IMG/VR virus record: IMGVR_UViG_2724679462_000002
Location: 79,741 to 143,740 of that record
Direction: 5' to 3' (one strand)
From: a virus
Taxonomy: Duplodnaviria > Caudoviricetes
Length of the DNA: 64,000 nt
Part shown: piece after piece, positions 3,940 through 29,019 of the stretch
How the letters are laid out: every line of letters starts with the position of its first letter
Numbering within the stretch: the first letter of the stretch is position 1
Translations under genes and position numbers: made by a program
The notes under the pieces: generated by a model
Databases searched by the model: none
What the model was told of the DNA's origin: nothing
Seen by the model: only the letters and a program-made list of their open reading frames with translations

Positions 3940-4117
3940 GGAACTAACCGATGTGTCCCTGATGCGGAAGTTTCATGCTCGCGGAGCATGAGGGCGGCTG
4001 GTGGTGCTGCATGAACTGCGGCAACAACTGGAAGGAATAGTCGACGTACATACGCCAGCAGGGGTGACCTGCTGGCGCTTATGCCGTCTGCTTACCTGAT
4101 TGAAACCGAAAACAAAC

Positions 4118-4126: not shown

Positions 4127-4228
4127 TAACTTGAACCTGGAACCCCAGAGTTCTAAAGGAATCTGGGGAATTTTTACGTCGGTAACCCCTTGTTATGGCT
4201 AGAACCAAACCGGAAATCAATTAGCTCT

Positions 4229-7216: not shown

Positions 7217-7599
7217 CCATACGCGTGGAAGGACAAATCGTTCCGACGTTGCCCGGACAAACCGCCCTGCTCTTGAAGTTGGACACGCAGCGCGGGATGA
7301 CTGTCAACCAATCAGCTCTCCAGCGCGCACAAGGTCTACTGTCACGCCTGCCCGCTGTCATGATGAGCGGTGAAATCAGTCCGAACGTGGATGGATCGCT
7401 CGCGATGCAATGGGTGCGAAAAGACGACAAGCTCGATGTCGATTTGCGACTGAAGTGCTTGCCCTTCGGAGGCGTTCAATACGCGTACATCGTCGAGGGA
7501 TCGGATGGCGGTCAAGCTGGAGGCATCCTGAAGCCCCACCAGTCCGACGACGAGGTTATCTGGATCGTGAGACATGTCGTTGCGATGCTGACGCCTTAG
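7213..7599 (+). CDS. Hypothetical protein
   Basis: ATGA overlap; resembles the 38048..38521 product. Confidence 0.65.
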   Translation: MTIRVEGQIVPTLPGQTALLLKLDTQRGMTVNQSALQRAQGLLSRLPAVMMSGEISPNVDGSLAMQWVRKDDKLDVDLRLKCLPFGGVQYAYIVEGSDGGQAGGILKPHQSDDEVIWIVRHVVAMLTP

Positions 7600-7634
7600 C
7601 CCCGCCCGGCCAACCCCTACGCCGCCGAACTAAC

Positions 7635-7693
7635 GGCATAAAAGCCCAAGCCTCCTTGCGGGGGCTTGGGCCTTATGACGGTCCTTATTTTTT
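7635..7693. terminator. Bidirectional terminator between convergent genes (GGCATAA-type hairpin)
   Basis: GCCCAAGCCTCC-TTGC-GGGGGCTTGGGC stem flanked by GGCATAA/TTATGAC, with a downstream T run. Confidence 0.7.
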
Positions 7694-7717
7694 TGGCTGG
7701 AAACAGCCAAAATGACC

Positions 7718-8692
7718 TTAGGCGAGGATCGTGTCGCTCGGAACGGCCGAGACCGAGTCCTGAGCCGAGATCACCATATCCGCCGAGATGCTGATGCCGG
7801 TGCCGATCGCCGAGGTCGGGCTGACCTGGTTGACCGCGATCTGCGCGACTTCGTTCTGGTAGCCGGTCGTCGTTGCTGCGACGTTCGGATCGATCTGCTG
7901 AGCGAAGGCGTTCTCGGTGTACGGGTTCGCGTTTGCGATGCTGATCGACGTGAGCAGCTGCTGCGCGAATGCGTCGACGCCCAGTCCGTACTGGGCGATA
8001 CCCGCGTACGTGATGTTGAGGTCGAGCTTGTCGCCCTGCGCCGTGATGTCACGCGAGCCAACGATGTCGCCCGTCGAGAGGGGGAACATGTTCGTCACGA
8101 GCCACGACTTCACGACACGGGTGTGCGTCGGATCCGGTTCGATGAAGATCATCGTGGCCGAATACATGTCAGCCAGCATGTCAGGCGGCGGACCGTACGT
8201 CGAGCCCGAACCGAGCGTCGCAACGTTCGCGAACTTCGTGTCCGGGTCCATCAGCAGGTTCGTGATCCAGCCTTGGTGGAACATCGAGACGGGCATGCCG
8301 TACTTTTCGTTCCACGTGAACTGCGGCTGCGAACGTTCGCGTGTAACGTTCACGACGTCCTGCTGCATGTTCCCGCCACCGCCGACCGGCGTTTCTGCCG
8401 TTTCGACCGTGAGGTGTGCGTTCAGACCTTCGATGCGAATCGCGTGCAGCTCAACCAACGCCCGCAGCGTGCCGACCCAAACGTCCGGGTTGGGCAGATA
8501 CTGGAAGCCAAGCGGCGCTTCGATCAGCAAGCAGATCAGGTTCTTACGAATGTACTGCTGGTTGTTCACCCACTGCGTGTAGTTCGGGGTGAAGCCCATC
8601 TGACCGCCATACTGGAGGTCCACCATGGGGTTGTTGTGACCCTGCGCGAACGCTGTCGTGTTCTGCAGAATCGCGTTTGCGATACGACCCAT
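7718..8692 (-). CDS. Tail tube protein (phiKZ gp30-like)
   Basis: 324 aa, directly downstream of the sheath gene; WLVTNMFPLSTG motif typical of myovirus tube proteins; AGGAG RBS. Confidence 0.75.
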   Translation of the reverse strand: MGRIANAILQNTTAFAQGHNNPMVDLQYGGQMGFTPNYTQWVNNQQYIRKNLICLLIEAPLGFQYLPNPDVWVGTLRALVELHAIRIEGLNAHLTVETAETPVGGGGNMQQDVVNVTRERSQPQFTWNEKYGMPVSMFHQGWITNLLMDPDTKFANVATLGSGSTYGPPPDMLADMYSATMIFIEPDPTHTRVVKSWLVTNMFPLSTGDIVGSRDITAQGDKLDLNITYAGIAQYGLGVDAFAQQLLTSISIANANPYTENAFAQQIDPNVAATTTGYQNEVAQIAVNQVSPTSAIGTGISISADMVISAQDSVSAVPSDTILA

Positions 8693-24182: not shown

Positions 24183-24986
24183 TCAGCGATTGCCGCCGAT
24201 CATAAGTCTAAGATACCTAGAGTAACTCTCCGGGTCGTTCATGAACGCGACTTTCCTCCAACGAGTGGTCAAGTGGGTCTGGTACAGCTCTTCGGCGTCG
24301 GCATAGCCGTCGATAATCTCCTTGATTCGACCGAGCGTCTGCCCACCACGCAATTCGCCCATATCCAGTTGGACGACGTAGGTGTTGTAGATGTAGGACT
24401 TGACCGCGAATTCCACCAACTTCACGAACGACAGATAGCTGCGCAACTGAATGTTGTTCAAGTTCTCGTCATTCGCCACAGTGCAGCGCAGATACGCATT
24501 GGCCGGCATCGTCATCACATCGCGAACGAGCACGACGTTCTCACCGATCAGTTCGAGCCGAGCCGTAGACGTTTGGGGAATCATCCCCATCGCATCCATT
24601 ACGGCCTGACCTGCTTGCAACATCATGTTGTTCTGGCCGTTCGCTGCAATACCTGCTGCCGAGACACGCGAGGGATCCGCGAAGGAGATATTGAGCACGG
24701 ACATGATCGTCCGACCGTTGGTCATCCTCTTCGGGATGCGGTAGACCGATTCGTAGATGCTGCCACCGCTCTCGCACAATCCGTCGAGGCAAATCCAGAT
24801 CTCAGTGCCACCAACCAGGTTGCAATCGATCAGCACGCGCGGTCGCATGACCAGGTTCATGATCTGATCGTCGATGCTCTTCGGCGTGTCGCGCCAACGT
24901 TCGACACGTTGAACGAAAACGGTGTGCAAGACCTCGGGCGGGATGCGGAACTTGATGTCTGCGAGGGCCTTGGTAATGGGATTCAT
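24183..24986 (-). CDS. Hypothetical protein, probably virion structural
   Basis: 267-aa ORF divergent from phuZ. Confidence 0.7.
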   Translation of the reverse strand: MNPITKALADIKFRIPPEVLHTVFVQRVERWRDTPKSIDDQIMNLVMRPRVLIDCNLVGGTEIWICLDGLCESGGSIYESVYRIPKRMTNGRTIMSVLNISFADPSRVSAAGIAANGQNNMMLQAGQAVMDAMGMIPQTSTARLELIGENVVLVRDVMTMPANAYLRCTVANDENLNNIQLRSYLSFVKLVEFAVKSYIYNTYVVQLDMGELRGGQTLGRIKEIIDGYADAEELYQTHLTTRWRKVAFMNDPESYSRYLRLMIGGNR

Positions 24987-25026
24987 GGGGGGATCTCCCG
25001 GGACTCAACCCAATAGAAAAATGGCG

Positions 25027-25035
25027 ATATATCAC
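25027..25035 (+). promoter_or_regulatory. Phage promoter motif ATATATCAC upstream of phuZ
   Basis: Exact copy of the recurrent motif. Confidence 0.65.
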
Positions 25036-25154
25036 TTTACTGGAGCTGTGACGTACACAGCATTCGCCGAGTGCTATTTAGGTCGCAGTTATTTTTTATC
25101 CCCGTCAGGCTTGTTATGACCAACCACAAGTCACAACCCCAAGGAACACCAACC

Positions 25155-26162
25155 ATGACTACGCATGAACGTGAACGCGGCCGTGTACGCCTTTACGCCT
25201 GTGGCGGCGCAGGCGTGAACGTAGGTCACAAAGTCGATCGCGTCGCGCAGAGCAACGACGAAGCGTTCGCCCAGCTCGACGTCGTATACATCGACACGTC
25301 GAAGTCGAACCTGCACTCCGACATCAAGGCAGAAAGCGTCTACCTGATCGACGGCCTCGACGGCTCCGGTCAAGTGCGTCGTGAAAATCACGGCGCCATC
25401 AGCGAGCGCGTGCGCGACATCCTGCAGACGTTCAAGCCGGTCGATCTCAACATCGTCCTTTCGTCGGCCGGTGGCGGTTCCGGATCAGTGATCGCACCTT
25501 CGATCGTTTCGGAACTCCTCGCGAAGGACTATCCGACGATCGTCATCTGTGTCGGCGATGACAGCACGAAGAAGTACAGCGAGAACACACTGAACACGCT
25601 GAAGTCCTACGACCAGATCGCGTCGACCGTACGTCAGCAGCCGGTCATCATGTCGTACCTGCAGAACAGCGCGGACATGACGCGCCCCGTCGTCGATCAG
25701 CGCGTGCAGCATCTCGTAGCCGCACTGTGCCTGCTCTTCTCGCGCCGCAACCGGGAGCTGGACTCGAAGGATCTGTACAACTGGCTGCACTACCAGAAGG
25801 TCACTTCGTACAAGCCGGCGCTCACCGCGCTCACGCTCATCGAAGACCTGAACGCCACCAGCCTCAGCAAGATCGGCAACCTCATCAGCATCGCGACGCT
25901 CACGATGCCTGACGTCGATCCGAGCCTGTCGCTGCGTCCGGAAGTGCAGTACGTCGGCTACATCGAGGGCGACACCGCCTCCGACAAGCTCAACATGCTG
26001 GCACCGTTCCACTACGTCACCTCCGACGGCGTCTTCGCGGAAGTCGCCGCCGGACTGAACACCGTGCTCCGCGAGCTCGAAGAGCAGACCGCCGCACGTC
26101 TGAACAAGGCAGGCATTTCGACCAGTGCTGATCAGGCTACCGATACCGGCCTGGTGTTGTAA
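25155..26162 (+). CDS. phuZ: PhuZ tubulin/FtsZ-like spindle protein
   Basis: YACGGAGVNVG, IDTS, DGSG, tubulin signature SAGGGSGS, ELDSKD and C-terminal DTGLVL; AAGGA RBS. Confidence 0.92.
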   Translation: MTTHERERGRVRLYACGGAGVNVGHKVDRVAQSNDEAFAQLDVVYIDTSKSNLHSDIKAESVYLIDGLDGSGQVRRENHGAISERVRDILQTFKPVDLNIVLSSAGGGSGSVIAPSIVSELLAKDYPTIVICVGDDSTKKYSENTLNTLKSYDQIASTVRQQPVIMSYLQNSADMTRPVVDQRVQHLVAALCLLFSRRNRELDSKDLYNWLHYQKVTSYKPALTALTLIEDLNATSLSKIGNLISIATLTMPDVDPSLSLRPEVQYVGYIEGDTASDKLNMLAPFHYVTSDGVFAEVAAGLNTVLRELEEQTAARLNKAGISTSADQATDTGLVL

Positions 26163-26800
26163 CTGGTGGCGGGATCTGATGCGCGGGCTGTGCTTAACCC
26201 CCGCGTGCCGGATTCTGATCAAACGCGGATACTCGTCAAAGACGGCGCATGACGTGCACATGCGCTCGTTCGTCCCCAAGCTAACTGCACACCCTAAAGA
26301 GCCGGATACCGCGGTCAAATGGAGGCCGTATGGACCCCACGCTCTGGCGGGTTTTGCCTGGGACATGACGAGTCCGCTCGCCAGATTTCTCACCTGACAT
26401 CGAACAAACAAGAAGCTTCTTTATCAGGAAGCTGGTCATCGCGAAGTGTGCTGACACGAGACTTGAGTTCAGCCACCCGAGGCATCGGGCTGGTCCCGAG
26501 AGGGAGCAATTGTTTCGAATGAGGTCCAAGGCACTGTCGCATCGATCGAGGTTCAGTGAGAACCAATCTACCGATCGTCCCGCAGGATCCGATTGCTCGG
26601 AGGACGGGATGATCCCAACCAGCCTGCGAAGGCAGGTTTGGAATGCGTTCGCGCTGAGCGCATTCCAAATCAACATCAACAGTTACGGACGACGGCGAGC
26701 CGGTATGCGCGATACCGGGCCAGACGAGCACGCCTAACCGGTTTGGGCATAGCAGCAGTCTGAAAAGGGCCGGGGGTGAAAAGTCCCCACGTCGTCCACC
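26163..26800 (+). ncRNA. Putative large structured non-coding RNA (element A)
   Basis: No credible ORF. Dense stems including 26231-26238/26366-26373, 26245-26251/26259-26265, 26637-26650/26656-26669 and 26687-26694/26790-26797. G-U pairs fit the + strand. Confidence 0.6.
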
Positions 26801-26816
26801 CGATCTAGGAGAAAGC

Positions 26817-27071
26817 ATGAGCGATAAACAGCAAATCGAAGAACGCGTTAAAGCCATCGTATCGGCTCAGCTTCAGGTCCCCGTCACGGACATCAGGAAC
26901 GAGGACACGATCGTCGCAGTCCTCGGTGCTGACTCGCTCGATGAAGTCGAGATGCTGATGGCAATCGAGGACGACTTCGGTTTGGACATCCTCGACGAGG
27001 ACGCGGAAAGCTTCAAGACCGTTCAGAGCATCATCGACTACGTCAAAGGCAAAGTTCCGGCCACGGTCTGA
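26817..27071 (+). CDS. acpP: Acyl carrier protein
   Basis: 84 aa, acidic; LGADSLDEVEMLMAIEDDFG (phosphopantetheine Ser in DSL) and TVQSIIDYV; AGGAG RBS. Confidence 0.9.
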   Translation: MSDKQQIEERVKAIVSAQLQVPVTDIRNEDTIVAVLGADSLDEVEMLMAIEDDFGLDILDEDAESFKTVQSIIDYVKGKVPATV

Positions 27072-27079
27072 TTTTTCTT

Positions 27080-27840
27080 AACCGGCGCGCGCCGCTTGCG
27101 GGAACTTGGCTCCCGCGCTGCGGTGCTCTTTTGTTGGGCGTCGGCGCGCAAACGGCGCGCCCTGCCCGTTGGGCGTGATGGTGAGCTAACACAATGTGAG
27201 GCCCGCGTTTGAACGTCACGCCCGCGCTACCTTGGCGCCGGTAGTCGCAGGGTTGAATTCAGTGCAACAAACTTAGGCTGCAGTAGTTTAGGTCTCGATC
27301 AATCCAAGTGATTGACTTCGATCAGATCGCCTGGGGAGGTGATGTGAGGAAGGCGCTCATACCTGATTTCAATCCTGCGTTTGTCCCAGTCTCCGTCACT
27401 CGCTACGCGCTGGTTGGCGCTGGCCGCGAGCGGGGCCCATTCCGAGACTGGATTCCATCAACATCCGCAAAACAACCGAAGAGGTCCGCCATGAAGTAGG
27501 TTAGCTCACGCTCCCATTTCCAGTCCGATTGACTGAAGCCATCCATCAAGTGACCCTCTAGTGAGTGGTAAGACATTCCGCATTCAGTCTGGAACATATA
27601 GCGTCCACCTACGCGGCTGCGCGGGCCTGGCACGAGCATCGACTCGAGCCAACAAGGCAGCGCGCAGGCTAGTGCTGGCCTAATTGCTGATCCACTGTTT
27701 GCACGACGTCGTGATGGTCTCCCAACTGCTCAGCGGGATAAAACAAAGAGCGTCTGTCTCCGTACTGCTCAGCCGGACACAGCAGAGCTACGGGCCAATT
27801 CCCCAGGATCGCATTACGCGAGGAGGGAGTTGGCCCTAAT
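27080..27840 (+). ncRNA. Putative large structured non-coding RNA (element B) with long-range pairings
   Basis: Stems 27171-27180/27214-27223, 27247-27257/27368-27378, 27386-27393/27444-27451 and 27792-27803/27825-27836; loop segments complementary to 27500-27509 and 27620-27628. Confidence 0.65.
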
Positions 27841-28012
27841 TGCCTTTTATGCCGTCAATTCAGCCAGCCAGTGAAACAAACGGAACCCGTGTAAAATCCC
27901 GGCCTGTTTGTTTTCCAGAATGCCTCTAAAAACGCTCAGAAACGCTTCTGACGGGCTCGTGCTGGGAAGTTTATATCTCCACGTCAAATCGTGTAGAGAC
28001 CAGGAGCCAGAA

Positions 28013-28393
28013 GTGTTTCGACAAGCCACTCTCATTCAGGACATCCGCGAGTTTTTCGCGATTATCCAACCGCCGTTGCTGGAAATATTCGAGCAAGACA
28101 ACGTCTGCTTCTCGGGAGCATCAATCGAGGACACGGTGGAATGGATCATCGCGCAGCAGATCGAGAACTGCTACGGCCTGTCCGTTCAAGGACACACCCG
28201 CGAGCGCTCGGTCTACAGCGCACTTCACGATCAAGTTGCGAATGCCTTGCCGTATCCCATCTCGTTGCCGGTTCGACAGTTAATAAAGGTGCCGTTGATT
28301 TACGACGACCAGTCCGTGAGCATCGATCTTCGAGGCACGGATTTGTACGTCTTCTATTACATCGACACCGCCCTCCTTTTCACTAGGCCATGA
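28013..28393 (+). CDS. Hypothetical protein (paralog array member)
   Basis: GTG start 28013 after AGGAG; C-terminal RGTDLYVF motif. Confidence 0.6.
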   Translation: MFRQATLIQDIREFFAIIQPPLLEIFEQDNVCFSGASIEDTVEWIIAQQIENCYGLSVQGHTRERSVYSALHDQVANALPYPISLPVRQLIKVPLIYDDQSVSIDLRGTDLYVFYYIDTALLFTRP

Positions 28394-29019
28394 ACTACCC
28401 GATTATTCAAACACTCAGGCTGGACCCGTTCCCCATCGCTTCGATGATTGAAGCGGTCGTCGGCGACTACCTGGTGAAGCCCGCCCCGGGTATCTATGCG
28501 AAGGGGAAGTTCGACCCGGTGATGCATCCGAGCGGCGTCTACTATCAGCAGGGTAGAAACGAACGAGGCGACATCGGTAACTTTGTTGTCCGGACAATCG
28601 CCGACATACAGCGCGGTACTGAGGTCAGAGACCTGGACGGCAATGTGGTCGTGACGCCCGGGCAAATCCCAATGCTCTCCAACGATCCGACTCTGCCGAC
28701 CCGCGGCATGGCGATCATTGAACGCCTCCTCATCGATACGCTTTCGATCTACGGCGACCAGCGCAAGCGGAGCGCTCGACAAGATGACTTCGCCCAGGTC
28801 GCTGCCGTCATCCACCCTGACTATCGCTCGGACCCCGAGATTGCCAATCAGATTCTGGGTATGGCAAGCCCCATTCGTGGGCAGGTGCGGGACTTCGCAG
28901 GCGAGAACCGCTGGGTCATCCACTTTCTGCACAGGGAAGGCTTCGGCTTAATGGTCGAGAAAAGCATCGATTTTCGAATCGCTGACTGGCACCGAATGAA
29001 AGGATGTGCGTATGACTAG
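28390..29019 (+). CDS. Hypothetical protein
   Basis: ATGA overlap; 209 aa. Confidence 0.7.
   Translation: MNYPIIQTLRLDPFPIASMIEAVVGDYLVKPAPGIYAKGKFDPVMHPSGVYYQQGRNERGDIGNFVVRTIADIQRGTEVRDLDGNVVVTPGQIPMLSNDPTLPTRGMAIIERLLIDTLSIYGDQRKRSARQDDFAQVAAVIHPDYRSDPEIANQILGMASPIRGQVRDFAGENRWVIHFLHREGFGLMVEKSIDFRIADWHRMKGCAYD

What the first reader, a model, noticed from the sequence alone, without database searches (positions are those of the whole stretch)
26163..27860. Candidate new system: phage acyl carrier protein gene sandwiched between two large structured RNAs, downstream of phuZ
Seen: in an otherwise tightly packed genome, about 650 nt before and about 780 nt after acpP have no credible ORF. 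Both tracts are almost entirely made of nested complementary stems, with G-U pairs consistent with + strand RNA. I see no terminator between phuZ and acpP. The unit ends in a strong hairpin (27792-27836) plus TTATGCC. Inference: a single transcript from the phuZ promoter could yield RNA-A, ACP and RNA-B as a module, for example a ribonucleoprotein, an RNA-guided/acyl-related activity, or decoys against host defence. I do not recognise either RNA as tRNA, tmRNA, RNase P or a group I/II intron.
Basis: partly seen in the sequence, partly recalled or inferred. Interest (0 to 1): 0.88.

Follow-up and report, generated by a model that had tools for sequence, protein, structure and literature searches.

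The report
New large folded RNAs flanking phage ACP
A giant phage carries two large, intricately folded non-coding RNAs and a small tRNA-shaped RNA around its acyl-carrier-protein gene; related phages keep them, no catalogued RNA family matches them, and their job is unknown.

Summary
Between phuZ and the next gene, only the ACP gene (26817-27071) looks coding. Both flanks fold far better than shuffles (z -4.6 and -4.05; coding controls +0.4 and +0.55).

Seven related phage loci (PhuZ 56-85% identical) have the same layout: phuZ, RNA-A, ACP, RNA-B. In the three closest genomes the tracts are 80-87% identical, against 49-73% at four-fold sites of flanking genes.

Covariation supports both folds:
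- RNA-A core: 22 of 46 pairs changed on both sides.
- RNA-B: 49 of 95 pairs.
- 0 of 500 shuffles reached either covariation score.
- G-U outnumbers A-C cells 47:12 and 104:19, which points to the + strand.

Both RNAs share a CAGGAUC-hairpin-GAGG module. Tract A ends in a separate 114-nt tRNA-like element that also occurs in three unrelated phage contigs.

Nothing matched in Rfam 15 or in 50,697 GenBank phage records.

Transcription is barely evidenced, and function is inferred only.

One oddity is unexplained. A frame overlapping RNA-A stays open in all six lineages, but shows no protein-level constraint.

This scan noted the RNA-B family before on other DNA (e1-5322505).

Verdict: these are real, undescribed structured RNAs. 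The module idea is partly supported.

The parts
25092..25118 (+). Promoter-like motif before phuZ: a T-run, about 13-18 nt of spacer, then TATG.
   Evidence: The T-run and TATG are invariant in the alignment of 8 of 8 loci. Only 3 such sites occur in the 64-kb window. The promoter role is inferred.
25155..26162 (+). phuZ (phage tubulin). It is complete and has its own stop codon.
   Evidence: PHROG 4733, E 7.5e-89. Pfam Tubulin 6e-08 and TubZ_C_2 1e-05. The C-terminal tail and stop are conserved in 8 loci.
26125..26397 (+). Open frame 'f1'. It overlaps the phuZ end and the RNA-A core. Its status is unresolved.
   Evidence: It stays open for 75-89 codons past the phuZ stop in 6 of 6 lineages (shuffle p 0.016-0.079 each). 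Anchor offsets stay in frame up to the P4 helix. Against coding: only 13.5% of differing codons are synonymous and mean BLOSUM is -0.50, versus 38% and +2.1 in phuZ. Codon usage is not gene-like. It has no Pfam or PHROG family.
26231..26470 (+). RNA-A core. Helices P1 (26231-26237 with 26367-26373), P2, P3, P4 (26309-26333), P5 (26344-26351 with 26377-26384; crosses P1, giving a pseudoknot) and P6 (26415-26432). An invariant 13-nt strand lies at 26458-26470.
   Evidence: An nhmmer profile hits 8 distinct loci at E 2e-35 to 5e-82. 90.2% of cells are paired versus 79.8% in shuffles. 22 of 46 pairs changed on both sides versus 11.3. 0 of 500 shuffles reached these values.
26508..26671 (+). RNA-A 3' half: hairpin 26550-26564, CAGGAUC-hairpin-GAGG module 26579-26608, and long hairpin 26635-26671.
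   Evidence: Alignable in 8 of 8 loci. The module is also hit by the RNA-B 3'-domain model in RNA-A of L043 (E 0.0026), L086 and L034. It contains the strongest local folding (z -3.8 and -5.7).
26687..26801 (+). tRNA-like element: a 7-bp closing stem, three arms, and a 3' tail ACC(A/C). It ends 16 nt before the ACP start codon.
   Evidence: Six sequences carry it: the window, L032, L033, L010, L106 and L109. 97.7% of cells are paired and 6 of 30 pairs changed on both sides. Model R1 finds one copy in each of 5 genomes or records. ARAGORN does not call it a tRNA, and Rfam gives nothing at E up to 10.
26817..27071 (+). Acyl carrier protein gene.
   Evidence: PF00550, E 1.5e-10. phrog_5934, E 1.1e-20. 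It has positive codon log-odds. It is 68% nt identical to the host acpP on contig C500.
27082..27836 (+). RNA-B, a multi-domain RNA. The first domain is closed by 27082-27088 pairing with 27235-27241. The conserved 3' domain is 27699-27836.
   Evidence: The 8-sequence alignment A11 has 95 predicted pairs. 88.9% of cells are paired versus 75.9% in shuffles. 49 pairs changed on both sides versus 27.8. 0 of 500 shuffles reached these values. Model R2 scores 71-131 bits in 8 of 8 loci.
27792..27836 (+). Terminal hairpin of RNA-B, carrying the CAGGAUC-hairpin-GAGG internal-loop module.
   Evidence: The outer and inner stems covary: 6 of 8 and 3 of 4 pairs changed on both sides (helices 14 and 15). 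The loop motif is invariant in 8 of 8. The hairpin is kept even where a tRNA gene rather than TTATGCC follows.
27847..27856 (+). TTATGCCGTC, the phage's genome-wide punctuation motif that follows hairpins.
   Evidence: 26 TTATGCC sites on contig C275, most directly after a GC-rich hairpin. Enriched in the window: 5 sites versus 0.75 expected. Conserved after RNA-B in 5 of 8 loci.

Best explanation
The stretch from the phuZ stop to 27856 holds an ACP gene set between three non-coding RNA elements on the + strand.
- RNA-A (about 26215-26680) is a multi-helix RNA with a pseudoknotted core.
- A self-contained 114-nt tRNA-like element lies at 26687-26801.
- RNA-B (about 27080-27836) is a multi-domain RNA of roughly 760 nt.

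Shown here:
- All three are under purifying selection.
- Their folds are kept by compensatory changes.
- They belong to no catalogued RNA family.
- RNA-A and RNA-B share one module: a hairpin with a CAGGAUC / GAGG internal loop.

Inferred:
- They are made on one transcript that starts at the conserved T-run/TATG motif before phuZ and ends at the RNA-B terminal hairpin and TTATGCC motif.
- The transcript is then cut into stable folded RNAs, for example at the tRNA-like element. In relatives the cut would fall at the tRNA genes that follow RNA-B.
- These RNAs act as structured RNAs in their own right, not as simple untranslated spacers. A likely role is as a scaffold for a common protein that recognises the shared module.
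- Whether ACP is that partner is open.
For: Non-coding status: codon log-odds are at or below about 0 in all six frames. ORFs in the tracts match no family. tblastn of neighbouring relatives' ORFs against the tracts gives E of 0.5 or more, so there is no pseudogene remnant.

Folding: z is -4.60 and -4.05, against +0.40 and +0.55 for coding controls.

Conservation: the same layout occurs in 7 further loci with PhuZ 56-85% identical. In the three closest genomes, tract identity is 80-87% against 49-73% at four-fold sites of flanking genes.

Covariation:
- RNA-A core: 22 of 46 pairs, score 0.408 versus 0.223 in shuffles (0 of 500 reached it), slid controls 0.06-0.15.
- RNA-B: 49 of 95 pairs, score 0.425 versus 0.217 (0 of 500), slid controls 0.05-0.12.
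- tRNA-like element: 6 of 30 pairs, 97.7% of cells paired.

Strand: G-U versus A-C cells are 47:12 and 104:19.

Shared module.

No internal punctuation. Conserved promoter-like motif before phuZ.

Co-occurrence: RNA-A, ACP and RNA-B are all present in 8 of 8 loci. All are absent in L031 and L037, which keep the phosphatase-like gene that lies between RNA-A and ACP in relatives.

tRNA link: tRNA arrays of 6-8 genes follow RNA-B in 3 of 8 loci. In L036 the array starts 9 nt after the hairpin.

Expression: one metatranscriptome contig of a relative spans 26544-26976.
Against: - No direct evidence of transcript ends, stability or processing. The single RNA-library contig has depth about 2 and could be DNA carry-over.
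- The eight sequences come from only about six lineages. The shuffle control ignores relatedness, so it overstates significance. Only the slid controls keep relatedness.
- The structures were derived from the same alignments on which they were then counted.
- An open frame overlaps the RNA-A core in every lineage. Part of RNA-A may therefore be translated.
- No convincing base-pairing between RNA-A and RNA-B was found, so 'one machine' is not supported at the RNA-RNA level.
- The link to ACP rests on few, related genomes. The PhuZ tree does not exclude a single gain.
- FLC9 and L042 have strongly folding gaps after phuZ without ACP.
Confidence: 0.6

Rival explanations
1. The RNAs are cis-acting untranslated regions of the ACP operon. 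RNA-A plus the tRNA-like element would form a very long structured leader that controls ACP translation or protects the mRNA. RNA-B would be a 3' trailer that stabilises it and ends transcription.
For: - Both RNAs always flank the ACP operon: 8 of 8 loci.
- The tRNA-like element ends 16 nt before the ACP start. In L106 and L010 it also sits just upstream of a + strand gene.
- The metatranscriptome contig joins the RNA-A 3' part to ACP.
- RNA-B ends in a hairpin at a punctuation site.
Against: - At 500-900 nt, with pseudoknot, multi-domain folds and long invariant unpaired strands, they are far larger than any leader or trailer I know of (recalled).
- In 5 of 8 loci another gene lies between RNA-A and ACP.
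- The genes downstream of the tRNA-like element are unrelated to each other, so it is not a metabolite-specific switch.
- RNA-B's hairpin is kept where tRNAs, not a terminator motif, follow it.
Confidence: 0.22
2. Part of tract A is protein-coding or at least translated. The frame 26125-26397 would be a small overlapping gene, or a translated leader whose peptide sequence does not matter. The RNA fold would then sit on top of it, as in a dual-function RNA.
For: - The frame is open for 75-89 codons after the phuZ stop in 6 of 6 lineages, while the other two frames stop within 0-47 codons. Per-lineage shuffle p is 0.016-0.079.
- Length differences between conserved anchors are multiples of 3 up to the P4 helix: about five events.
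- 10 of 18 differences among the three closest genomes in 26181-26225 fall on codon position 3.
Against: - No protein-level constraint. 105 of 778 differing codons (13.5%) are synonymous and mean BLOSUM is -0.50. This resembles the off-frames of phuZ (17% and 5%), not its true frame (38%, +2.1).
- Over the whole frame, variable columns are spread 14, 9 and 15 across codon positions 1, 2 and 3.
- Codon log-odds run from +5 down to -35 per 100 codons, against +20 to +50 in real genes.
- No conserved start codon and no family.
- The lineages share conserved blocks, so the p-values are not independent.
Confidence: 0.12
3. Ordinary intergenic spacer: neutral DNA carrying a few terminator or attenuator hairpins, or the decayed remains of genes.
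For: - Local 200-nt folding is unremarkable over much of both tracts.
Against: - The tracts are 80-87% identical where neutral sites are 49-73%.
- Homology is detectable down to PhuZ 56% identity.
- Covariation is heavy.
- No protein similarity to any neighbouring relatives' ORF.
Confidence: 0.03
4. A DNA-level element (replication origin, packaging site, or centromere for the PhuZ spindle), or a self-splicing intron or mobile element that carries ACP.
For: - The position next to a tubulin-family segregation gene.
- The whole block is present or absent as a unit.
Against: - G-U pairs (47 and 104 cells) far outnumber A-C (12 and 19). This fits RNA on one strand, not DNA cruciforms.
- No iterated repeats were seen in the alignments.
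- No Rfam intron model matches at E up to 10.
- phuZ and the next gene are complete on their own, so there are no exons to join.
- No reverse transcriptase, endonuclease or integrase ORF lies in the block.
Confidence: 0.03

Closest known systems
GOLLD and ROOL RNAs: large 'ornate' bacterial and phage non-coding RNAs of unknown function. I saw the cryo-EM preprint 10.1101/2024.12.08.627333 and PMC5737381 only as search listings and abstract starts.
   Same: - Several hundred nucleotides long, with multi-domain, covariation-supported folds.
- Carried by phages.
- Function unknown.
- In 3 of 8 loci RNA-B lies just upstream of a tRNA array. GOLLD and ROOL are reported to sit near tRNAs (recalled, not checked here).
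   Different: - No sequence or structure match to either Rfam model, even at E up to 10.
- Two different large RNAs share a module and flank a protein gene (ACP).
- The host range is nucleus-forming jumbo phages linked to Paraburkholderia-type hosts.
- Oligomeric cage formation is untested.
Phage T4 tRNA region with its co-transcribed stable RNAs, species 1 and 2 (recalled; also named in scan note e1-5405440).
   Same: Small tRNA-shaped stable RNAs and tRNAs are made from a common transcript in a phage RNA-gene region and released by tRNA-processing enzymes. This is the model I infer for the 114-nt element and for RNA-B followed by tRNAs.
   Different: - Processing is not shown here.
- The window's phage contig has no tRNA at all.
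- The element has a 32-nt structured insert in place of an anticodon loop and fails tRNA detectors.
tRNA-like structures in mRNAs and viral RNAs (reviewed in works cited by PMC10690425; I read passages only).
   Same: A four-way junction with a 7-bp closing stem and a 3' ACC(A/C) tail. In 4 of 6 sequences the tail reads ACCA. It sits directly upstream of a gene.
   Different: No evidence of RNase P cleavage, CCA addition or aminoacylation. The T-loop and D-loop consensus are not met, and no tRNA model hits it.
OLE RNA and other large RNAs that work as ribonucleoproteins (recalled).
   Same: A large conserved RNA genetically linked to a small protein gene. Invariant internal-loop motifs of the kind proteins bind.
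   Different: No homology. ACP is not known to bind RNA. The linkage rests on 8 related loci.

Membership tests
GOLLD RNA (Rfam) | A match to the curated covariance model | tested here: not met
   cmscan of the whole window at gathering scores gave 0 matches. At E up to 10 on 26000-28100 there were only two unrelated weak hits: sX5 at 21.3 bits against a gathering score of 50, and sR30 at 11.9 bits against 38.
ROOL RNA (Rfam) | A match to the curated covariance model | tested here: not met
   Same searches.
GOLLD/ROOL-like 'ornate large RNA' as a kind, not a family | Longer than 400 nt, many conserved helices with covariation, non-coding, of phage or bacterial origin | tested here: met
   RNA-A is about 520 nt without the tRNA-like element and RNA-B is about 760 nt. 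Covariation. Non-coding status.
GOLLD/ROOL-like 'ornate large RNA' as a kind | Neighbourhood of tRNA genes (a recalled feature) | tested here: inconclusive
   The window's contig has no tRNA. In relatives, 3 of 8 loci have a 6-8 tRNA array after RNA-B.
tRNA (for 26687-26801) | Detected by ARAGORN or the Rfam tRNA model; canonical D, anticodon and T arms | tested here: not met
   ARAGORN finds 0 genes in the window. Rfam gives 0 hits at E up to 10 on 26670-26830. The anticodon-like arm holds a 32-nt insert.
tRNA-like structure (for 26687-26801) | A four-way junction closed by an acceptor-like stem, followed by an NCCA-like tail | tested here: met
   A 7-bp closing stem, three arms and an invariant ACC. 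ACCA occurs in 4 of 6 sequences and ACCC in 2 of 6. 97.7% of cells are paired.
Group I / group II self-splicing intron | A match to intron core models; interrupts a gene whose exons join into one frame | tested here: not met
   No Rfam hit. phuZ ends with its conserved C-terminal tail and stop in 8 of 8 loci. The next gene has its own start.
Riboswitch or known cis-regulatory leader | A match to a known aptamer family; a consistent class of downstream gene | tested here: not met
   No Rfam hit. The gene downstream of RNA-A is either ACP or a phosphatase-like ORF. Downstream of the tRNA-like element lie ACP, a ParA-like gene, or an unknown gene.
Intrinsic (rho-independent) terminator (for 27792-27836) | A GC-rich hairpin directly followed by a U-run | tested here: not met
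   The consensus scan lists no + strand site in 24900-28500. The hairpin is followed by TAATTGCC and then TTTTATGCC. It is conserved as part of RNA-B where tRNAs follow.
Acyl carrier protein (PF00550) for 26817-27071 | A Pfam PP-binding match above the gathering score | tested here: met
   41.6 bits against a cut-off of 20.8, E 1.5e-10. phrog_5934, E 1.1e-20.
PhuZ phage tubulin for 25155-26162 | A PHROG or Pfam tubulin match | tested here: met
   phrog_4733, E 7.5e-89. PF00091 scores 33.6 bits against a cut-off of 33.

The most novel reading that the evidence does not exclude
RNA-A, the tRNA-like element, ACP and RNA-B would form one ribonucleoprotein device of nucleus-forming phages. The two large RNAs, through their shared CAGGAUC/GAGG module, would scaffold or cage the carrier protein. 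The tRNA-like ACCA end would take part in an RNA-linked acyl or aminoacyl transfer to or from ACP's phosphopantetheine arm. That would be a direct link between tRNA-type and carrier-protein-type chemistry. A milder version of the idea is that these RNAs are a new class of self-assembling RNA cages, like GOLLD and ROOL.
Probability: 0.1. Interest if true: 0.92.

Novelty: new variant of a known kind. Interest (0 to 1): 0.72.

Why it matters
Large, highly structured non-coding RNAs are rare. Most (GOLLD, ROOL, OLE, raiA) still lack a known function, so each new class is a fresh chance to learn what such RNAs do.

What is found here:
- Two new ones, of about 520 and 760 nt, plus a new tRNA-shaped element.
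- They sit in nucleus-forming jumbo phages, where RNA has to leave a protein shell and is the molecule most exposed to host defences.
- They lie beside the spindle gene phuZ, and in eight related loci they accompany a phage acyl carrier protein of unknown role.

What makes them testable:
- A motif shared by both RNAs points to a common binding partner that could be fished out.
- Related sequences occur in several soil and rhizosphere metagenomes that I laid, so deeper covariation analysis is possible at once.

If the link to ACP is real, it would be an unprecedented pairing of carrier-protein chemistry with structured RNA. If it is not, these remain well-supported new RNA families that current catalogues lack.

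Tried and rejected
Known RNA families: the Rfam searches found nothing usable.

Cultured phages:
- blastn 'distant' with the window's 1851 nt hit 2 of 50,697 records, in the ACP part only.
- RNA-B of L036, RNA-A of L086 and the tRNA-like element each gave no match.

Host genomes:
- The tract DNA was searched in the window's own assembly and in 400 genomes of the host family.
- Every listed match other than self lies in query positions 673-890, the ACP gene. 78 matches were not listed, and one genome (G120) was not scored.
- G217 is marked unpublished.

Other searches that added little:
- The first metagenome scan, using the downstream 157-aa protein, found no relative.
- The genome-contig scan for a 23-mer found nothing.
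- The second metagenome scan gave mostly distant PhuZ loci; only L086 carried the RNAs.
- Two of the 7 viral hits to the degenerate RNA-A pattern (L101, L103) and four of the 9 hits to the 17-mer (L107, L108, L110, L111) were chance matches.

Pairing between RNA-A and RNA-B: a scan of all column pairs found only short candidates rich in G-U or mismatches, which I judge to be chance.

Homology of the FLC9 and L042 gaps to RNA-A or RNA-B: none by MAFFT, nhmmer --max with 8-sequence profiles, or blastn. Model R2 found nothing in the FLC9, RTH11, L031, L042 and L037 records. The tool warns that an empty answer shows little.

RNAalifold paired the P1 5' strand with the invariant 13-nt strand. I rejected this in favour of P1 with 26367-26373, because L043 compensates there and mismatches in the alifold pairing.

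A regex anchor test for frame in RNA-B mis-hit and was discarded (second part).

Sequencing runs:
They are not used as evidence of habitat or expression.
- X24 covers only 26492-27009. The lack of cover elsewhere means nothing.

Literature:
- Four searches found no paper on RNAs beside phuZ or ACP in jumbo phages.
- PMC10690425 predicts 8,495 candidate structured RNAs in IMG/VR v3. I read passages only.
- The third RNA model, the structure-prediction tools, the complex tool and the atlas were not used.


Full report
**What is at the site.** The window is the last 64 kb of a 143.7-kb contig with 57.7% GC. The contig sits in a 9.4-Mb, 629-contig assembly. The contig is a nucleus-forming-type jumbo phage.
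- The gene at 25155-26162 is PhuZ (PHROG 4733, E 7.5e-89).
- The ORF at 26817-27071 is an acyl carrier protein (PF00550, E 1.5e-10; phrog_5934, E 1.1e-20).
- The nearest cultured phage PhuZ is only 42% identical (Burkholderia phage FLC9; 196 records matched).
- That leaves 654 nt between phuZ and ACP and about 790 nt between ACP and the next gene.

**The tracts are not coding and match nothing known.**
- A codon log-odds model trained on 58 long ORFs of the contig is clearly positive in phuZ, ACP and the downstream genes. It is at or below about 0 in all six frames through both tracts.
- The six longest ORFs inside the tracts have no Pfam or PHROG family.
- Proteins from neighbouring genes of relatives leave no tblastn trace in the tracts (E 0.5 or more).
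- Rfam 15 gives no hit at gathering scores over the whole window. It gives only two irrelevant weak hits at E up to 10 over 26000-28100, and none over 26670-26830.
- ARAGORN finds no tRNA or tmRNA in the window or on the whole contig.

**Folding.**
- The two tracts fold with z = -4.60 and -4.05 against dinucleotide shuffles. 0 of 20 shuffles did as well.
- Coding stretches of the same lengths give +0.40 and +0.55.
- The minus strands give -2.4 and -2.9.
- In 200-nt windows only some parts stand out, chiefly 26500-26800. Energy alone would therefore be modest evidence.

**Relatives.** PhuZ-guided scans of IMG/VR, GTDB genomes and metagenomes, followed by blastn, tblastn and nhmmer, gave seven further loci with the same order: phuZ, RNA-A, ACP operon, RNA-B.
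- The loci are L032 (PhuZ 85%), L033 (79%), L034 (72%), L030 (66%, a contig in a Paraburkholderia assembly), L036 (61%), L043 (56%) and L086 (56%).
- In the three closest genomes, RNA-A is 82-87% and RNA-B 80-84% identical. That is as high as the coding genes. Four-fold degenerate sites of the three flanking genes are only 49-73% identical.
- Both tracts are therefore under purifying selection at the nucleotide level.
- Only one copy exists in the window's assembly.
- No copy turned up in 400 genomes of the host family beyond acpP hits, or in 50,697 GenBank phage records.

**Structure and strand.**
- For the RNA-A core (alignment A9, 8 sequences) I took the RNAalifold helices. I replaced one by P1 (26231-26237 with 26367-26373), which L043 and L034 compensate. 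P1 crosses P5, so the core is pseudoknotted.
- On that structure 90.2% of cells pair (shuffles 79.8%). 22 of 46 pairs have changes on both sides (shuffles 11.3). The covariation score is 0.408 (shuffles 0.223; 0 of 500 reach it; slid controls 0.06-0.15).
- For RNA-B (A11, 95 RNAalifold pairs in 16 helices) the figures are 88.9% against 75.9%, 49 against 27.8 pairs, and 0.425 against 0.217 (0 of 500; slid 0.05-0.12).
- G-U cells outnumber A-C cells 47:12 and 104:19, so the RNA is the + strand.
- Limits: there are about six lineages, the structures were derived from the alignments they were counted on, and the shuffle control ignores relatedness.

**Anatomy.**
- RNA-A has a core at 26231-26470 with helices P1-P6 and an invariant 13-nt strand at 26458-26470.
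- Its 3' half (26508-26671) has a small hairpin, a hairpin with a CAGGAUC / GAGG internal loop (26579-26608) and a long hairpin (26635-26671). This half is alignable in 8 of 8 loci.
- RNA-B starts at a T-rich stretch after the ACP stop.
- It has a first domain closed by 27082-27088 pairing with 27235-27241, several covarying long-range helices, and a strongly conserved 3' domain (27699-27836).
- The terminal hairpin of that domain (27792-27836) carries the same CAGGAUC / GAGG loop.
- A covariance model of the RNA-B 3' domain finds the eight RNA-B copies (71-131 bits). It also finds, weakly, the corresponding part of RNA-A in L043 (E 0.0026), L086 and L034 (11 matches in 61 sources, 636 kb). 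The two RNAs thus share a module.
- I found no credible pairing between RNA-A and RNA-B.

**The tRNA-like element.**
- The last 114 nt of tract A (26687-26801) occur only in the three closest genomes among the eight loci. They also occur in three other phage contigs with quite different neighbours.
- L010 is an 83-kb record where the element lies between a ligase-like and a ParA-like gene. L106 is 245 kb and L109 is 159 kb.
- The six copies keep a four-way junction with a 7-bp closing stem followed by ACC(A/C). 97.7% of cells are paired and 6 of 30 pairs changed on both sides.
- Model R1 finds exactly one copy in each of five genomes or records.
- The element is therefore an independent, portable motif. 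A first-stage note (e1-6253927) had pointed to its cloverleaf shape.

**Boundaries.**
- The hairpin-TTATGCC(GTC) motif that closes the unit is the phage's general punctuation. There are 26 TTATGCC sites on the contig, mostly right after a GC-rich hairpin and some as two-sided palindromes. The window has 5 TTTATGCC sites against 0.75 expected.
- None lies on the + strand between 22804 and 27847.
- Upstream of phuZ, all 8 loci share a T-run, a spacer and TATG (25092-25118). Only 3 such sites exist in the window, and none inside the unit.
- The consensus scan sees no + strand terminator in 24900-28500.
- This fits one transcription unit from phuZ to 27856, but it is inference.

**Linkage to ACP and to tRNAs.**
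- In 5 of 8 loci a 156-210-aa histidine-phosphatase-like ORF lies between RNA-A and ACP. L030 has the phosphatase-ACP pair twice (compare scan note e1-6204104).
- L031 and L037 belong to the same well-supported PhuZ clade (98/99). They keep that phosphatase-like gene but lack ACP, RNA-A and RNA-B.
- The best tree needs two changes of the character, but a single gain is not excluded.
- In L036, L043 and L086 an array of 6-8 tRNA genes follows RNA-B. In L036 it starts 9 nt after the hairpin.
- The gaps after phuZ in the more distant FLC9 (770 nt) and L042 (834 nt) have no detectable homology to RNA-A or RNA-B. They fold with z = -7.06 and -3.42 and end in the same T-run/TATGCC motif, without any ACP.
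- A structured RNA after phuZ may thus be older and wider than the ACP association.

**Expression.**
- Of 24 runs that share words with the stretch, I laid four.
- Three soil or rhizosphere DNA metagenomes hold relatives across the region.
- The one metatranscriptome (X24) has a 505-nt contig of depth about 2. It matches 26544-26976 with 20 differences and no gap, running from the RNA-A 3' half through the tRNA-like element into ACP.
- This is weak evidence for transcription, because DNA can be present in such libraries.

**An unexplained frame.**
- The frame 26125-26397 overlaps the phuZ end and the RNA-A core. It is open for 75-89 codons past the phuZ stop in all six lineages, while the other frames stop within 0-47 codons.
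- Distances between conserved anchors differ by multiples of three up to helix P4.
- Yet differing codons are synonymous in only 105 of 778 cases, with mean BLOSUM -0.50. The real phuZ frame shows 252 of 659 and +2.1.
- Codon usage is not gene-like, and there is no conserved start codon.
- I cannot explain this. Translation that does not depend on the peptide sequence is one possibility.

**Reading.**
- That these are real, selected, + strand structured RNAs of undescribed families is well supported.
- How they work is inferred. They are large, pseudoknotted and multi-domain, with long invariant unpaired strands. RNA-B persists in front of either a gene or tRNAs, and RNA-A persists in front of either ACP or the phosphatase-like gene.
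- I therefore favour stable, processed RNAs that act as folded molecules, probably bound by a common factor at the shared module, over plain leader and trailer functions.
- The cis-regulatory reading remains a serious rival.
- Spacer, pseudogene, DNA-element and intron readings are disfavoured by the data above.

**Novelty.**
- The closest known kind is the ornate large RNAs of bacteria and phages (GOLLD, ROOL). Membership in those families was tested and not met.
- Four literature searches found no description.
- A catalogue of candidate phage RNAs (PMC10690425, passages read) may list parts of these elements in supplements that I could not open.
- This scan had already reported the RNA-B family from another genome (e1-5322505), with the same link to a second RNA and ACP.
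- The scan had also dismissed a leader before a related phosphatase-ACP operon as an ordinary spacer (e1-6204105). My covariation data on RNA-A, which include that type of locus (L030), argue against that dismissal.

Noticed in passing
contig-wide; in the window at 4079, 22804, 27847, 42111 and 61826 (+) and 7641, 18683/18691, 19832, 21622, 54707 and 61787 (-): A GC-rich hairpin directly followed by TTATGCC(GTC) recurs 26 times on the 143.7-kb contig. Some copies are perfect two-sided palindromes (GACGGCATAA-hairpin-TTATGCCGTC). It looks like this phage clade's terminator and/or TATG-type promoter punctuation. It also ends the phuZ-downstream gaps of FLC9 and L042.
   Followed up: partly
window 26125-26397 (+): A frame overlapping the phuZ end and the RNA-A core stays open and in register in all six lineages, yet shows no protein-level constraint. 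It is unexplained.
   Followed up: yes
L001:5994-6763 (Burkholderia phage FLC9) and L042:5994-6827: The ORF-free gaps right after phuZ in these more distant phages fold with z = -7.06 and -3.42. They have no detectable homology to RNA-A or RNA-B and no ACP. They may be positional analogues, or homologues diverged beyond recognition.
   Followed up: partly
L010:293-411, L106:5540-5655, L109:104-219 (-): The 114-nt tRNA-like element is a portable motif. It also occurs, once per record, in an 83-kb, a 245-kb and a 159-kb phage contig. In L010 and L106, the two contexts I examined, it lies just upstream of genes unrelated to ACP.
   Followed up: yes
L034:6456-7070, L030:6487-7116 and 7385-7879, L036:6574-7041, L043:6677-7144, L086:2400-2867, L031:6462-6953, L037:6429-6950: A histidine-phosphatase-like ORF family accompanies ACP in relatives; L086 has an RHAEK motif, and there is a weak His_Phos_1 hit for L030. 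The family is doubled in L030. It persists in L031 and L037 without ACP and is missing from the window's lineage.
   Followed up: partly
L036:8915-8992 and L086:5161-5240: ARAGORN reports tRNA-like genes with four-base anticodons (cgaa, gcca) inside the tRNA arrays that follow RNA-B in relatives. They are possible frameshift-suppressor-type or aberrant tRNAs.
   Followed up: no
window 25092-25118, 4171-4197 (+) and 22586-22563 (-): A second, rarer promoter-like motif: a T-run, then A, then 8-18 nt, then TATG. It is invariant before phuZ in 8 of 8 related loci, and only three copies occur in 64 kb.
   Followed up: partly
whole assembly (G000): A 143.7-kb jumbo-phage contig (GC 57.7%) lies in a bacterial assembly of 9.4 Mb (mean GC about 61% over 255 contigs above 5 kb). 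Two related phage genomes are likewise found as about 285-kb contigs inside Paraburkholderia assemblies. This suggests carrier-state or pseudolysogenic cultures.
   Followed up: no
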